Below, in pieces: positions 2,721-7,893 of a stretch of DNA of 8,493 bases. Both the position numbers and the translations under genes were made by a program. Under the pieces are notes generated by a model, which saw nothing but the letters and a program-made list of their open reading frames with translations, was not told where the DNA came from and made no database searches. Position 1 is the first letter of the stretch, and each line of letters starts with the position of its first letter. This DNA is from a virus (lineage: Duplodnaviria > Heunggongvirae > Uroviricota > Caudoviricetes), in the IMG/VR virus record IMGVR_UViG_2541047885_000003. One strand, written 5' to 3'.

Positions 2721-2746
2721 AGCCCGCTTTTTGCGGGTTTTTTTAT
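2721..2746 (+). terminator. Rho-independent terminator, tR'-like (end of the short PR' leader transcript)
   Basis: agcccgc-ttttt-gcgggtt hairpin followed by a T7 run (tttttttat). Confidence 0.7.
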
Positions 2747-2867
2747 GCCTGAAAAACGGCACAGAACATTAAACGCGCTGGTGGTTGCGAATACCGGTCT
2801 TTCAGCTTGCTGGCTTTTCCGACAAGAGTTATTGGTATGTTACGTTAACCAGAAAAGGGAAAAAGAC

Positions 2868-3065
2868 ATGCTAAAACAGCAGGATATGACCGAAACCGCC
2901 AGAGTGGTGTTTAATGAGTTAAGCGTCACCGAACCGGCGACAGTCGGGGAGATTGCACAGAATACTTACCTTTCACGCGAACGCTGCCAGTTAATACTGA
3001 CCCAGCTTGTTATGGCGGGTCTGGCAGACTATCAGTTTGGTTGTTACAGACACCTTCAGTCCTGA
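2868..3065 (+). CDS. small (65 aa) putative winged-helix DNA-binding protein, PapI/FaeA-like pattern
   Basis: ATG 2868 preceded by AAAAGGGA SD; MLKQQDMTETARVVFNELSVTEPATVGEIAQNTYLSRERCQLILTQLVMAGLADYQFGCYRHLQS has the name-TxxEIA-helix layout of small wHTH regulators. The track ORF start at 2745 lies inside the tR' T-tract and has no RBS. Confidence 0.45.
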   Translation: MLKQQDMTETARVVFNELSVTEPATVGEIAQNTYLSRERCQLILTQLVMAGLADYQFGCYRHLQS

Positions 3066-3080
3066 AGGCTTTTTTATTTG
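3053..3080 (+). terminator. Rho-independent terminator overlapping the stop codon of the small wHTH ORF
   Basis: ccttca-gtcc-tgaagg stem-loop followed by cttttttatttg. Confidence 0.55.
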
Positions 3081-3394
3081 TGGTAAATGGGCGGCTGGTG
3101 GGTGTGGTGGTTGTTGCTTTCCCGTTGCTGAAAAAGAAAACGCCAGACTGTTAGCCGGGTATCAGTTATCTGGAGAAATTTTTAAATACCTCACAATTCA
3201 GGCGGTTGACTGTTGTCTGGTTTGCGGGGAGTTTGTTAAAAGAAACTGGCATGGTGAATCCCCCTGTGCGGAGGGGCAATCAGCAACTGGTGTTTTGTCA
3301 CCGACCCTTATCCTTTCTGTGCGGGTTCAGGTGCTGATACTGAACTCACCGGGAGGCACCCGGCATCATGCAATGGCACATAGCGCCACTCTCC

Positions 3395-3430
3395 AGCCCC
3401 TCTCCGGAGGGGCTGTTTATATTGATTTTG
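3395..3430 (+). terminator. Rho-independent terminator ending a ~330 bp non-coding stretch
   Basis: Perfect 8-bp stem agcccctc / gaggggct with tccg loop, followed by gtttatattgattttg. On the minus strand it is preceded, not followed, by the U-rich tract, so it is + strand specific. Confidence 0.5.
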
Positions 3431-3446
3431 TCAGATGTGAGTAAAC

Positions 3447-3480
3447 TCCTTATGGACTTTGTTGTTTTAGTCCATAAGGA
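3447..3480. terminator. perfect 12-bp inverted repeat (hairpin) between convergent transcription units; possible bidirectional terminator
   Basis: tccttatggact (3447-3458), 10-nt loop ttgttgtttt, agtccataagga (3469-3480); overlaps the last codons of the minus-strand ORF 3450-3785. Confidence 0.4.
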
Positions 3481-3785
3481 CATATTTGCAGAGTGCAACG
3501 GTTATTAAAGCATTCATTCAATACGTTATCTGTATTTGTAGGACATTCCTGGCTGTTTTTGATTAAATTCCAGAATGTTTTATTGAATGGTGCTACGTTG
3601 TAAATGGTTACAGGTAGCACTTTGTTATTGAGCATGATACCTGTGTGAGTCAGTGTAAATATACTTTCAGGAGGTAAGAAAGCATCCGATTGATACCAGA
3701 TTATTAATTTTATTTTACTCCATATGACTGAAAAAGATATTCCGCATGATGGCTGGATAACTGTATCAATCACAATCCACTTCAT
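3450..3785 (-). CDS. hypothetical protein (111 aa), ORFan in AT-rich island, transcribed opposite to the phage late operon
   Basis: Minus-strand ATG 3783-3785 with AAGGA SD about 6 nt upstream; five Cys in the C-terminal third (QECPTN...[16 protein letters not shown]); base composition far more AT-rich than the flanks. No family recognised. Confidence 0.4.
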
Positions 3786-3825
3786 TTAGTTTCCTTGTTT
3801 ATGTCTTGCTGGTGATGTTCTGAAA

Positions 3826-3852
3826 AGTATAAATGATATTTTTGAATGTAAA
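3826..3852 (-). promoter_or_regulatory. candidate sigma70 promoter for the minus-strand ORFan
   Basis: On the minus strand: -35 TTTACA (3847-3852), 15-nt spacer, -10 TATACT (3826-3831), about 40 nt upstream of the start codon. Spacer is short and AT-rich DNA yields chance matches. Confidence 0.25.
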
Positions 3853-4045
3853 CCATAGAGCAGAATTATTTTTCTGATGTTGTTTATTGTTTATTTAAAT
3901 GCAGGGTGGTTTATATCTCGTCTTGTAGTTTATCCATGCATATCTGCTTGATGATGAGGTTTTTATTTAAGGTATGGTTTTGTGTTTTTTCTGTATTACA
4001 TGTCAGGTATTTTAAAGAATTATTTTTCAGATGGTGGAAAGAACC

Positions 4046-6006
4046 ATGGCATTTAAACACTATGATGTTGTCAGGGCGGCATCGCCGTCAGACCTTGCGA
4101 AACGACTGACACAAAAACTGAAGGAGGGGTGGCAGCCATTTGGCAGTCCGGTGGCCATCACGCCTTATACCCTGATGCAGGCCATTGCGGCGGAAGGTGA
4201 TGTCACCACACCTGTGGTGGTGAAGCCGTCGGATGGAGAAGGCGCAGTTATCAGCACCACCAGCAACCCGGAGTATTACTTTGTTGTTGCCCTAGCCGGG
4301 CGGTCAAACGGTATGGCGTATGGTGAAGGGCTTCCGCTGCCGGAGACATATGACCGTCCGGACCCGCGTATTAAACAGCTGGCGCGTCGCAGCACTGTCA
4401 CGCCGGGTGGTGCGTCCTGTAACTACAATGACATTATTCCTGCGGACCACTGCCTGCATGATGTTCAGGATTTGAGTAAGTTTTCACACCCGAAAGCCAG
4501 CGCAGCTCAGTATGGATGCGTGGGGCAGGGATTACATATCGCGAAGAAATTGTTGCCGTTTATTCCGGCGAATGCCGGTATTCTTCTGGTTCCGTGCTGC
4601 CGTGGTGGTTCTGCATTTTTGGCGGGCGATGAAGGTACCTTCAGCGAATCCACCGGCGCAAGCGAGACCTCGGCACGCTGGGGTGTTGATAAGCCACTGT
4701 ACAAGGACCTGCTTACCCGTACTCAGGCCGCACTGAAGGCCAACCCTAAAAATATTCTGCTTGCAGTGGTCTGGATGCAGGGCGAGTTTGATTTGAAACA
4801 GGGTGCATACGCCACTCAGCCGGGGCTGTTTGATTCCATGGTGGAAAAATATCGTTCTGACCTGTCGGAATTCGGAGGTCAGTGTCTCGGGGGCTCTCCG
4901 TCATCAGTTCCCTGGATTTGTGGCGACACGACCTACTACTGGAAGCAGACTTATTCTTCGCAATACGATGCGGTGTATGGTGCATATAAGACGAAATCCG
5001 CAAAAAAATCTTCTTTGTGCCGTTTATGACGGATGAAAACGGGCGAAATGTGGGTACCAACGAGCCGTCAGAAGATCCGGATGTTGCGGATATTGGGTAT
5101 TACGGAGCCGGTGGTCGAACGGACGCCAAAACCTGGACGACGGCCGACCGTAAAACGCATTTTGGATCATGGGCACGTCGTGGGATTATTTCCGACCGTC
5201 TGGCAACGGCGATTCTTGTGCATGCCGGGAGAAACGCTGAATTCATTACCGGAAAACAGCCTGATACGGTGAAGCCCACCGGACCTTCCGGTGAAGGTAC
5301 GGAGAGAGAGCCGGAAGCCCCGGTCAGTAACCGAACCCTGATGAGTCTGCTGGCGTCCGGCGAAGACCTGGCATCACAGGGCTGGCGCTATTATCACAAA
5401 CCGGCGAGCGGAGACAATGTTAACAAAAACATTGCTGAAGCGGTGGTCAGTGATGCGGGGGCTACGGGAGGTAAGGCCCTGCAACTGAATAAACCGGAAA
5501 ACCACATCTGGTTTCTGGAGCATGATGCAGCCGGACAGGGAGTGGAGTTACTGAAGAAGGGGGGACGTGTGAGCGTACGGTTTAAGTTGCCGGGTTCACT
5601 GGTGCCGAATCAGTTTGCCCTGGGCATTTACTGGCAGTTGTCGTCCCTGCCGGAGGGAGTGACGCTGGCAGAGGAAGGCAACGACATGCTGATGTCCTTC
5701 TTCCTGCAGACGGATGCGACGAACCTGAACGCGATGCACCACAAGAAGCCGAATGCGAAGCTGGATACGTTCGGGGTCTTTGATAACGGATGGCACACAC
5801 TGGCTTTTGAGTTTGCCGGAAACAACAGCATTCAGGTGACGCCGGTACTGGATGAGAAACGGGGGACGCCGTTCACACTGGTGAAATCTCCGGCATCAGG
5901 GGCGGCGGACAAACTGCAACTGACAGGCATATCAAAGGCGGCGACATATACGCTGCTGATTGACAGTGTGAAGGTGGAAGTGAACAACGCGGATGCCGCG
6001 GCATGA
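4046..6006 (+). pseudogene. nanS: prophage sialate O-acetylesterase (NanS-p-like: N-terminal DUF1737-like region + SGNH/SASA esterase + C-terminal domain), interrupted by a frameshift at an A7 tract (5002-5008)
   Basis: Frame A 4046-5029 (MAFKHYDVVRAASPSDL..., contains the GRSNG esterase block) and frame B 5017-6006 together total ~655 codons, the size of intact NanS-p as I recall it. The frames overlap at gcAAAAAAAtc; adding one A (or removing two) fuses them into ...SAKKIFFVPFMTDENG.... Confidence 0.65.
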
Positions 6007-6904: not shown

Positions 6905-7393
6905 ATGAATAAAAAATATGAACTGGTTGTTAAGGGGATAAATAATTACGGGGATAAGGTTACTGTTACTGTGAAGCCGGAAGGTGACGGGCAAGCGTCG
7001 CTGTTGTTGCCAGATGTGGCGATTAGTCTTGACCGTACTGAAGGTGCCACGCTGGAGTTTTACGAAGCTGAGGCGAAAAAGCAGGCGAAGCAGTTTTTCA
7101 TGGATGTTGCTGCCGGGTTATGTGAAGGGAACGAACCGTTGCCGGAAAAGCGCCCCATAATTTTAGAGGCGCAGGATGTGTTGATAACCTACAAAGGAAA
7201 GCTACCGGGAAGAATTACTGATGCTCTGAAGATGCCGCCGTCAACACTGCGGTCAGAAAAAGATGATGTTGAATCACGTATTGAAAAACTGGAGCGCTAT
7301 ATCGCTGAATTGAAAAAAAGCGCCCCAACAAAAAATGAGGTGCTTGCAGCAGATGAAATGAAAGAAGCTATTCTTGATCGCGCGGGCATCTAA
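6905..7393 (+). CDS. hypothetical protein (162 aa) inside the lysis cassette; possibly DUF1327/YdfR-like
   Basis: ATG 6905 (GTG 6902 also in frame) with GGAGAG SD overlapping the holin stop; beta-rich N-terminal half and a predicted coiled-coil C-terminus (ESRIEKLERYIAELKK). The family guess is from memory of the essQ-ydfR-rrrQ arrangement in the Qin prophage and is unverified. Confidence 0.55.
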   Translation: MNKKYELVVKGINNYGDKVTVTVKPEGDGQASLLLPDVAISLDRTEGATLEFYEAEAKKQAKQFFMDVAAGLCEGNEPLPEKRPIILEAQDVLITYKGKLPGRITDALKMPPSTLRSEKDDVESRIEKLERYIAELKKSAPTKNEVLAADEMKEAILDRAGI

Positions 7394-7407
7394 GCTGCGC
7401 TTCACGA

Positions 7408-7893
7408 TTGAAAGAGCATCTTCAGCGGCCTGAAGAAAAACGCCGCGATGAGCAGTTTGCTGCGTTTGACGATTATTGTCGGAAAGTGATGAGCAGAAAT
7501 CTCGCAGAGTGTTTCAGTATTCATAATGATAATTTCAGTGAGCTGGAATGGGAGTGTAACCGGCCATCCTTTGTTGTATCCGGTGATGCTGGGAAAATAA
7601 CCATCTCAGAAAATGGGAAAGTAACACCTCCATCGCACCAGCACAGTGAGGAGCTCATTGAATTTGCCATTGATTACCTGAAGAACAATAAAAAGCAGGG
7701 GCTGATGAAGCGCGTTGGCCGTTGCATGGGATATCTTCAGGTAGCCGCTGAGATTGAAGCGCTGGCCAGTGGTGCTGATAAGGATGCAATTGTGCGGGAG
7801 GCTCTTCTTCGTGATTTTAATACTCCACCCTTTAAAAAAGTGCCGGCTTACTGGCTTCATCCGGGGCTGACTTATCTTAAAGTGCGTATTTAG
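7408..7893 (+). CDS. hypothetical protein (161 aa from TTG 7408; 134 aa if ATG 7489 is used)
   Basis: Long open frame filling the gap up to the endolysin; no convincing SD for either start. No family recognised. Confidence 0.45.
   Translation: MKEHLQRPEEKRRDEQFAAFDDYCRKVMSRNLAECFSIHNDNFSELEWECNRPSFVVSGDAGKITISENGKVTPPSHQHSEELIEFAIDYLKNNKKQGLMKRVGRCMGYLQVAAEIEALASGADKDAIVREALLRDFNTPPFKKVPAYWLHPGLTYLKVRI

What the first reader, a model, noticed from the sequence alone, without database searches (positions are those of the whole stretch)
3447..4030. AT-rich island with a convergent ORFan at the position where Stx phages carry stxAB
Between the Q/tR' module and nanS-p, where Stx-converting phages carry tRNA genes and stxAB, this prophage has a ~580 bp segment that is visibly far more AT-rich than the flanking phage DNA. 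It carries a 111-aa ORF (3450-3785) on the opposite strand to the late operon, with its own AAGGA RBS, a promoter-like TTTACA/TATACT pair, and a perfect 12-bp hairpin at its 3' end. The product has a Cys-rich C-terminal third and matches nothing I recognise. An oppositely oriented, self-contained cargo gene at the classic moron/toxin hotspot is a good candidate for an undescribed accessory function such as a defence, exclusion or virulence factor.
Basis: partly seen in the sequence, partly recalled or inferred. Interest (0 to 1): 0.7.

Follow-up and report, generated by a model that had tools for sequence, protein, structure and literature searches.

The report
Prophage iraL gene, already characterised
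The AT-rich island carries iraL, a known prophage gene whose small protein blocks the adaptor RssB and so protects the stress sigma factor RpoS from degradation; it is real and functional, but it was described in 2014.

Summary
Window 3447-4030 is 32% G+C against 52% for the rest. It carries an intact 111-aa ORF (3450-3785, minus strand) with an AAGGA ribosome-binding site, a TTTACA/TATACT promoter pair and a perfect 12-bp hairpin.

The ORF is not an ORFan. It scores 162 bits on NCBIfam NF007393 "anti-adapter protein IraM" (cut-off 121). It is 110/111 identical to IraL of uropathogenic E. coli CFT073. IraL was shown in 2014 to bind RssB and stabilise RpoS in log phase.

The island is in 1446 of 5426 complete E. 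coli genomes. It does not sit in the stxAB slot. It lies one slot further on, between the STnc100 sRNA gene (3220-3424) and nanS-p, where phage 933W carries the AsxR anti-sRNA.

Verdict: already known, low interest.

Two side observations may be new. A third IraM/IraL clade lies directly 3' of stx2AB in 232 complete genomes. The four C-terminal cysteines are among the most conserved positions in the whole family, although the structural study removed that tail.

The parts
3447..4030 (.). AT-rich island as defined by composition. By loss of homology to phage 933W, the replaced segment is 3373-4044.
   Evidence: G+C 0.320 against 0.518 for the rest. Homology to 933W ends at 3372 and resumes at 4045.
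3450..3785 (-). iraL coding sequence (111 aa), an RssB anti-adaptor of the IraM/IraL family
   Evidence: NF007393 162 bits, cut-off 121. 110/111 identical to CFT073 IraL. PDB 8TWD IraM E=2e-32. dN/dS 0.16-0.19 against iraM.
3792..3796 (-). Shine-Dalgarno AAGGA, 6 nt upstream of the ATG
   Evidence: read from the sequence; lies within the published 5' UTR
3786..3818 (-). 5' UTR (33 nt); transcription start at 3818
   Evidence: the 5'-RACE sequence ACATCACCAGCAAGGCATAAACAAGGAAACCA (PMC4045071) equals the CFT073 locus and matches the window at 30/32 positions
3826..3852 (-). sigma-70-type core promoter: -35 TTTACA (3847-3852), 15-nt spacer, -10 TATACT (3826-3831)
   Evidence: sequence. The position fits the mapped start. 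The -10 is invariant in 110 island copies. Not listed by the generic scan.
3853..4045 (.). AT-rich region (about 29% G+C) between the iraL promoter and the nanS-p start codon; probable regulatory region, and it also supplies the nanS-p ribosome-binding site
   Evidence: composition. Most variable part of the island, 27 variable sites per 100 nt. The one PhoP-box-like match (3881-3897) is no more than chance.
3447..3480 (-). perfect 12-bp hairpin covering the last 10 codons and the stop codon of iraL; specific to the IraL allele
3220..3424 (+). STnc100-family sRNA gene, convergent with iraL; its intrinsic terminator is the G+C-rich hairpin 3394-3415 plus the T-tract
   Evidence: Rfam RF02076 133.5 bits (gathering score 47), full model 1-206; terminator scan
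4046..6006 (+). nanS-p (DUF1737 + SASA esterase + DUF6645), the right-hand neighbour of the island; split here by a 1-nt deletion in an A-run near 5001
   Evidence: Pfam; annotation of intact copies; alignment

Best explanation
The island is the iraL locus of a lambdoid prophage, a lysogenic-conversion ('moron') gene.

In the lysogen, iraL is transcribed from its own sigma-70-type promoter. Transcription starts at window 3818 on the minus strand and runs against the silent late operon. The 111-aa product has an N-terminal PmrD-like beta-barrel. This domain binds the response-regulator-type adaptor RssB. RssB then cannot hand sigma-S (RpoS) to the ClpXP protease. RpoS is therefore stabilised already in exponential growth, and the general stress response of the host is raised.

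Shown experimentally, for a protein 110/111 identical (Hryckowian et al. 2014): the transcript 5' end; co-purification and two-hybrid interaction with RssB; lower RpoS level and half-life in a deletion mutant; restoration of RpoS stability by iraL under its own promoter.

Shown here: identity with that gene, fold, conservation, purifying selection, locus architecture and distribution.

Inferred only: silencing or thermoregulation through the AT-rich upstream DNA; down-regulation by head-on late transcription after prophage induction; any role of the 3' hairpin; any role of the Cys4 tail.
For: - Family model: NF007393 'anti-adapter protein IraM', 162.4 bits against a cut-off of 121, full length.
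- Identity: 110/111 aa with CFT073 C_RS06710 in the potB prophage. Three nucleotide differences in the 336-nt CDS.
- Published work on that gene (PMC4045071): RssB binding, RpoS stabilisation and 5' RACE.
- The 5'-RACE sequence is found exactly in CFT073 and at 30/32 positions in the window, ending at 3818.
- RNA-seq in CFT073 detects iraL (c1429), 1.6 log2-fold higher at 37 C than at 23 C (PMC12890032).
- Solved homologue: PDB 8TWD (IraM bound to RssB), E=2e-32.
- Fold: the AlphaFold model (pLDDT 82.8) matches 8TWD_A at TM 0.91 and rmsd 1.2 A, and three PmrD structures at TM about 0.71.
- Contacts: of the 15 IraM residues reported to touch RssB, 11 are identical and 4 conservative in this protein (alignment).
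- Selection: dN/dS against iraM is 0.16-0.19. The ORF is an intact 111 aa in 86 of 93 loci held.
- Distribution: the island is in 1446 of 5426 complete E. coli genomes and in 292 IMG/VR contigs. It always lies between STnc100 and nanS-p, behind three different Q modules.
Against: - Nothing contradicts the identification.
- The window allele has Ala65 where CFT073 has Val65, and two changes in the 5' UTR. Their effects are untested.
- The -35/-10 spacer is only 15 nt, and the generic promoter scan does not list the pair.
- No convincing intrinsic terminator follows the gene.
[quoted passage not shown] The IraM-RssB crystal structure may therefore not transfer in detail.
- The Pfam copy used here gives no hit at all.
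Confidence: 0.95

Rival explanations
1. One reading: an undescribed accessory function such as anti-phage defence, superinfection exclusion or a toxin or virulence factor, unrelated to known families.
For: Position in the late-region cargo zone; foreign composition; own promoter. PHROGs lists the family (phrog_4407) as 'unknown function'.
Against: Clear membership of the IraM/IraL family, with experimental data for a 99% identical protein. No PADLOC match. No signal peptide or toxin-like features seen.
Confidence: 0.02
2. A decaying, non-functional remnant: an ORF kept by chance in AT-rich junk between two phage modules.
For: The neighbouring genes in this window are damaged: a nanS-p frameshift and a DUF968 deletion. 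No clean terminator follows the ORF.
Against: The ORF is an intact 111 aa in 86/93 loci. dN/dS is 0.16-0.19. The CDS is less variable than its flanks, 10 against 27 variable sites per 100 nt. The -10 is invariant. A deletion phenotype is published.
Confidence: 0.02
3. IraL does more than sequester RssB. As a PmrD-fold 'connector' with an invariant C-terminal Cys4 motif, it might act on a second response regulator. Alternatively, its activity or stability might be switched by metal or redox state through the tail. This adds to the best explanation rather than replacing it.
For: The fold is shared only with PmrD, which binds the receiver domain of PmrA. C81, C97 and C102 are 100% conserved and C92 98% conserved in 43 family representatives down to about 25% identity. 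That makes them among the best-conserved positions of the protein. The tail is dispensable for RssB binding in IraM, so its conservation needs another explanation.
Against: No experimental hint. AlphaFold gives the tail only pLDDT 50-67. The spacing C-x10-C-x4-C-x4-C has no CxxC pair typical of zinc knuckles. The profile search finds no solved relative for the tail. The tail may simply be a stability or degradation element.
Confidence: 0.12

Closest known systems
IraL of uropathogenic E. coli CFT073 (c1429 / C_RS06710; Hryckowian et al. 2014, mBio, PMC4045071)
   Same: 110/111 aa identical. Same 5' UTR, promoter and flanks: about 98% mean column identity in a three-way alignment of about 740 nt (window, CFT073, WP3-W18). 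Same place in a lambdoid prophage, between STnc100 and nanS-p.
   Different: Ala65 in place of Val65, and two substitutions in the 5' UTR. The Q module upstream is of the DUF1133 type without tRNA genes. CFT073 has an 822-nt Q gene, IS200 and three tRNA genes.
IraM (YcgW/ElbA) of E. coli K-12; PDB 8TWD
   Same: Homologous over the full length: 63% identity with no gaps, same four Cys, same PmrD-like fold. RssB-contact residues are largely kept. The CDS and upstream DNA are similarly AT-rich, 34% and 27%.
   Different: Similarity is confined to the coding region. iraM lies next to, not inside, prophage e14. IraM is induced by Mg2+ starvation through PhoP/PhoQ (papers), whereas IraL acts in log phase. 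IraL has four extra C-terminal residues created by the hairpin. [quoted passage not shown]
Stx2-phage-linked IraM-family gene (e.g. WP_001398907.1 of E. coli O111:H- 11128)
   Same: Same slot, strand and neighbours (STnc100 on one side, nanS-p on the other). 78/111 identical to IraL, with the same Cys4 tail.
   Different: A separate clade, 70/107 identical to IraM. Its upstream region is only faintly similar. It sits directly 3' of stx2AB in 232 complete genomes. No paper in the library discusses it.
AsxR anti-sRNA of Stx2 phage 933W/Sp5 (Rfam RF02703)
   Same: Occupies the same slot, between the STnc100 terminator and nanS-p. It is also on the minus strand and convergent with STnc100. It is also cargo that acts on host regulation.
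   Different: A 53-nt RNA in a spacer of about 205-260 nt, not a protein gene. No sequence similarity.
PmrD (PDB 4HN7, 2JSO, 2RQX)
   Same: The only other solved protein with this fold (TM about 0.71). There is weak profile similarity, E=0.023. It also binds a response-regulator receiver domain.
   Different: About 15% identity, no Cys4 tail, and the target is PmrA rather than RssB.

Membership tests
IraM/IraL RssB anti-adaptor family (NCBIfam NF007393) | Scores above the curated cut-off of the family model over its full length | tested here: met
   162.4 bits against cut-off 121, residues 1-110 on profile positions 1-113 of 114
IraM/IraL RssB anti-adaptor family (NCBIfam NF007393) | PmrD-like fold: antiparallel beta-barrel with a beta-hairpin and one alpha-helix, residues 1-78 | tested here: met
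   AlphaFold model with pLDDT about 90 over residues 1-78. Foldseek: 8TWD_A TM 0.91, rmsd 1.2 A; PmrD 4HN7/2JSO/2RQX TM about 0.71; no other hit below E=1.
IraM/IraL RssB anti-adaptor family (NCBIfam NF007393) | Conservation of the IraM residues that contact RssB in 8TWD (clusters I-III and Pro66) | tested here: met
   I4, I6, W22, K26, I42, C14, F18, W30, I61, Y62 and P66 are identical. T13S, L75I, H63N and I64V are conservative.
IraM/IraL RssB anti-adaptor family (NCBIfam NF007393) | C-terminal tail with four conserved cysteines ending in C-P-[YF]-G | tested here: met
   C81, C92, C97 and C102 are present. They are 98-100% conserved in 43 representatives.
IraM/IraL RssB anti-adaptor family (NCBIfam NF007393) | Binds RssB and stabilises RpoS against ClpXP | not testable with these tools
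   Published for CFT073 IraL, which is 110/111 identical (PMC4045071)
iraL allele group (as opposed to iraM), by the criterion of Hryckowian et al. 2014 | At least 95% nucleotide identity to CFT073 iraL over the whole CDS, and a conserved promoter region (at least 96%) | tested here: met
   3 differences in 336 nt of CDS. About 98% mean column identity in the three-way alignment (window, CFT073, WP3-W18), which spans the promoter region. Identity to K-12 iraM is only 71.5% at nucleotide level.
Phage moron / lysogenic-conversion gene | Own promoter, independent of the phage late operon, active in the lysogen | tested here: met
   The transcript 5' end from uninduced log-phase CFT073 maps to window 3818 on the minus strand. 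RNA-seq detects the gene.
Phage moron / lysogenic-conversion gene | Own terminator | tested here: inconclusive
   A 12-bp hairpin overlaps the stop codon but lacks a T-tract. The next hairpin (3394-3415) terminates the opposite strand.
Phage moron / lysogenic-conversion gene | Composition distinct from neighbouring phage genes, and present or absent between otherwise similar phages | tested here: met
   32% against 52% G+C. Among 80 nanS-p loci, 25 carry iraL and 51 an AsxR-type spacer.
Known anti-phage defence systems (PADLOC-DB 2.0) | Match to any defence-system protein model | tested here: not met
   0 families at E <= 0.01
Cargo of the stxAB slot of Stx phages | Lies between the tRNA genes and the STnc100 sRNA, on the late-operon strand | tested here: not met
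   iraL lies beyond STnc100 and on the opposite strand. It co-exists with stx2AB in related loci.

The most novel reading that the evidence does not exclude
The short interval between the STnc100 terminator and the nanS-p start codon may be a dedicated hot spot for minus-strand, lysogen-expressed modulators of host global regulation: iraL, an Stx2-linked IraM-like gene, or the AsxR anti-sRNA. The third, uncharacterised IraM/IraL clade lies directly 3' of stx2AB in at least 232 complete STEC genomes (O111, O145, O26, O103, O91 and some O157). If it is a working RssB anti-adaptor, many Stx2 phages would raise RpoS at the protein-stability level, in addition to the known StxS sRNA that activates rpoS translation. 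Separately, the near-invariant Cys4 tail, removed in the only crystal structure and described there as less conserved, could be a metal- or redox-responsive switch for the whole family.
Probability: 0.35. Interest if true: 0.5.

Novelty: already known. Interest (0 to 1): 0.15.

Why it matters
For the finding itself, little is at stake. iraL has been a described anti-adaptor since 2014, and NCBI's pipeline already names it.

The value of this check is threefold. It removes a false 'ORFan'. It corrects the map of this much-studied phage region, which runs: Q, tRNA genes, [stxAB or filler], STnc100, [iraL, IraM-like gene or AsxR], nanS-p.

If the side observations hold, they bear on how Stx2 phages tune the RpoS stress response of EHEC. 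They also bear on what the conserved cysteine tail of IraM-family proteins does.

Tried and rejected
- Pfam scan of the ORF, at E up to 10: no hit. The precomputed annotation of its homologues lists PF11183. The failure was put down to the Pfam copy, not to the protein.
- PADLOC: nothing.
- PhoP-box search (KGTTTA-N5-KGTTTA, 2 mismatches): one hit at 3881-3897 against 2.2 expected by chance. Rejected.
- Weak phmmer hits of residues 9-47 to Kti11/Dph3 zinc proteins (E 0.26-0.9): treated as noise.
- First AlphaFold run with 16 close homologues: pLDDT 56, tail below 50. Superseded by a 47-sequence alignment, pLDDT 82.8. The tail is still only 50-67, so neither model tells whether the four Cys cluster in space. 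Coordinates could not be inspected.
- Chimeric query of 933W stx2B plus iraL: 0 of 1980 genomes have both side by side. Taken alone this suggested mutual exclusion. It was overturned for the wider family by the diverged allele found next to stx2.
- Looked for a remnant of the phage slot around K-12 iraM. Similarity is confined to the CDS, and there is no STnc100 match.
- The Battesti 2012 paper on H-NS control of iraM and iraD is not held. H-NS control of iraL remains an inference.

Full report
**1. The observation**

The segment is really there. In 200-nt windows, G+C falls to 0.275-0.36 between 3401 and 4000, against about 0.45-0.58 on both sides. Computed directly, 3447-4030 is 32.0% G+C and the rest of the window 51.8%.

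The mechanical ORF list contains a 111-aa ORF at 3450-3785 on the minus strand. AAGGA lies 6 nt before its ATG. A TTTACA / 15 nt / TATACT pair lies at 3852-3826. A perfect 12-bp inverted repeat has arms at 3447-3458 and 3469-3480, with dG -16.7 kcal/mol.

Two corrections apply. First, the hairpin is not behind the gene. It covers the last ten codons and the stop codon, and it lacks a T-tract, so it is not a canonical terminator. Second, the generic promoter scan does not list the pair, because of the short spacer.

**2. What it is**

The product is not an ORFan.
- It scores 162.4 bits on NCBIfam NF007393 'anti-adapter protein IraM', cut-off 121.
- It matches the IraM chain of PDB 8TWD at E=2e-32.
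- It is 63% identical, without gaps, to K-12 IraM.
- NCBI's annotation pipeline already names the gene in every genome examined.

A literature search found Hryckowian et al. 2014 (mBio, PMC4045071). That paper described IraL, the IraM homologue of uropathogenic E. coli CFT073, carried on the potB island. I fetched that region of CFT073. The gene C_RS06710 lies in a complete lambdoid prophage next to potB. Its product is 110/111 identical to the window ORF. The flanks from 3340 to 4080 align in a three-way alignment (window, CFT073, WP3-W18) at about 98% mean column identity.

The paper reports the 5'-RACE end of iraL mRNA as ACATCACCAGCAAGGCATAAACAAGGAAACCA. This string is present exactly in CFT073 and at 30/32 positions in the window. 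Its first base corresponds to window 3818 on the minus strand.

**3. How it works**

Published experiments on the 99%-identical protein show four things.
- IraL co-purifies with RssB and interacts with it in a two-hybrid assay.
- Deleting iraL lowers RpoS in log phase in CFT073 and in Shigella sonnei.
- The deletion halves the RpoS half-life.
- iraL under its own promoter restores RpoS stability.

The crystal structure of IraM(1-78) bound to RssB (Brugger et al. 2023, PMC10844676) shows a PmrD-like beta-barrel. It bridges both RssB domains and occludes the face that binds RpoS.

My AlphaFold model of the window protein used a 47-sequence alignment and reached pLDDT 82.8. It superposes on 8TWD_A at TM 0.91 and rmsd 1.2 A. 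The only other meaningful hits are three PmrD structures. Of the 15 IraM residues listed as RssB contacts, 11 are identical and 4 conservatively replaced.

Selection is purifying. dN/dS against iraM is 0.16-0.19. The ORF is an intact 111 aa in 86 of 93 loci held. The CDS varies less than the UTR and the upstream DNA.

RNA-seq in CFT073 detects the gene (c1429), with 1.6 log2-fold more transcript at 37 C than at 23 C (PMC12890032).

The following remain inferences: H-NS-type silencing of the 29% G+C upstream region, interference from Q-dependent late transcription after induction, and any role of the 3' hairpin. A PhoP-box search gave nothing beyond chance. BLAST similarity to the K-12 iraM locus is confined to the coding region. 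This agrees with the different regulation reported for the two genes.

**4. Where it sits**

Comparison with phage 933W shows otherwise.
- Window 3191-3372 is homologous to the DNA just 3' of stx2B.
- Window 4045 onward is homologous to the start of L0105 (nanS-p).
- So the island replaces a 262-bp spacer of 933W, not the toxin genes.

Rfam identifies the conserved segment as the STnc100 sRNA: window 3220-3424, plus strand, 133.5 bits against a gathering score of 47. The G+C-rich hairpin at 3394-3415 is its terminator.

In 933W, STnc100 lies in the same place. It is followed immediately, on the minus strand, by the AsxR anti-sRNA.

The map is therefore: Q, (tRNA genes), [stxAB or filler], STnc100, [iraL or AsxR spacer], nanS-p.

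Three samples support this map.
- In loci found through the IraL protein, iraL always has these neighbours. It lies behind three different Q modules and never next to stx2.
- In 80 loci found through the nanS-p N-terminus, 51 have the AsxR-type spacer, 25 have iraL and 3 have diverged IraM-family genes.
- The iraL island is present in 1446 of 5426 complete E. coli genomes. The AsxR-type spacer is present in 1110.

**5. A side result**

A chimeric query of 933W stx2B plus iraL found no genome with both side by side. However, one IMG/VR contig reads tRNA genes, stx2A, stx2B, STnc100, a diverged IraM-family gene on the minus strand, then nanS-p. That whole arrangement is present in 232 complete genomes. 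They include O111:H- 11128, O145:H28 RM13516 and strains of O26:H11, O103:H2, O91 and O157:H7.

The protein is 78/111 identical to IraL and 70/107 identical to IraM. The paper library holds nothing that links IraM to Stx phages. Stx phages are already known to activate rpoS translation through the StxS sRNA (PMC7547250). An anti-adaptor next to stx2 would be a second phage route to RpoS. This is untested.

**6. The cysteine tail**

An exhaustive search found 74 representative relatives. Their sources name them IraM in Salmonella salamae, Citrobacter, Enterobacter, Klebsiella, Cronobacter, Kosakonia and others.

In 43 full-length representatives, down to about 25% identity, C81, C97 and C102 are invariant and C92 is 98% conserved. 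These are among the best-conserved positions of the protein.

The structural paper removed residues 79-107. It described the tail as less conserved and flexible. AlphaFold gives the tail only pLDDT 50-67, and no solved relative exists for it. What the tail does is open.

**7. Comparison, novelty and verdict**

The finding is the known gene iraL. It passes every testable membership criterion for the IraM/IraL family and for the iraL allele group. It fails the test for defence systems and the test for the stxAB slot.

Novelty: already known. Interest is low. The first reader's anatomy was accurate, but the 'undescribed function' reading is not supported.

The side observations are modest but possibly new leads: the slot architecture shared with AsxR, the Stx2-linked clade and the near-invariant Cys4 tail.

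Noticed in passing
window 3220-3424 (+): A full-length STnc100-family sRNA gene (Rfam RF02076, 133.5 bits against a gathering score of 47) lies convergent with iraL. Only about 25 nt separate its terminator from the iraL stop codon. If iraL transcription reads past its weak hairpin, it would produce RNA antisense to this sRNA.
   Followed up: partly
L006 (phage 933W) 5778-6037: In 933W the same slot, between STnc100 and nanS-p, holds the AsxR anti-sRNA on the minus strand (RF02703, 88 bits). iraL and AsxR are therefore alternative occupants of one slot, in the same orientation.
   Followed up: partly
L158 1367-2500; L174 (E. coli O111:H- 11128) 3501-4634: A third IraM/IraL clade (78/111 identical to IraL) lies directly 3' of stx2AB and STnc100 in 232 complete E. 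coli genomes (Stx2a and Stx2c phages). No paper in the library mentions it.
   Followed up: partly
window 3450-3545 (codons 81-111 of iraL): The four tail cysteines (C81, C92, C97, C102) are 98-100% conserved across 43 family representatives, putting them among the most conserved positions. Yet the published structure truncated this tail and called it less conserved.
   Followed up: partly
window about 5001-5008: nanS-p is split into two ORFs (4031-5029 and 5017-6006) by loss of one A in an A8 run, relative to an intact copy. The ATCC 25922 copy is broken at a different place, by an extra G near 5558. Either the gene has decayed independently twice, or these are homopolymer sequencing errors.
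   Followed up: yes
window about 1494-1502: The DUF968 gene carries a 109-bp deletion relative to ATCC 25922, at a short repeat (GGTGGT...AGCC). This leaves ORFs 777-1526 and 1547-1708.
   Followed up: yes
window 2745-3065 (+): A 106-aa ORF lies just after the DUF1133-type Q gene. It belongs to phrog_331 (unknown function) and ends in a terminator-like hairpin at 3053-3068. It recurs downstream of different Q genes in many iraL loci.
   Followed up: no
window 7300-7450 and 7408-7893 (+): This stretch is not matched in the otherwise 99.5% identical ATCC 25922 prophage. The 161-aa ORF matches only the C-terminal half of phrog_1085 (unknown function).
   Followed up: no
L082 (IMGVR_UViG_2671180603_000013): This contig has the iraL locus followed, after 56 nt of nanS-p, by a DNA methyltransferase gene. 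A second copy of tRNA genes, STnc100 and nanS-p follows, without iraL. It is either a recombinant or tandem prophages. The contig contains N bases.
   Followed up: partly
window 3450-3785: The local Pfam-A copy returns no family for IraL or for K-12 IraM, even at E=10. The precomputed annotation of the homologues lists PF11183.
   Followed up: partly
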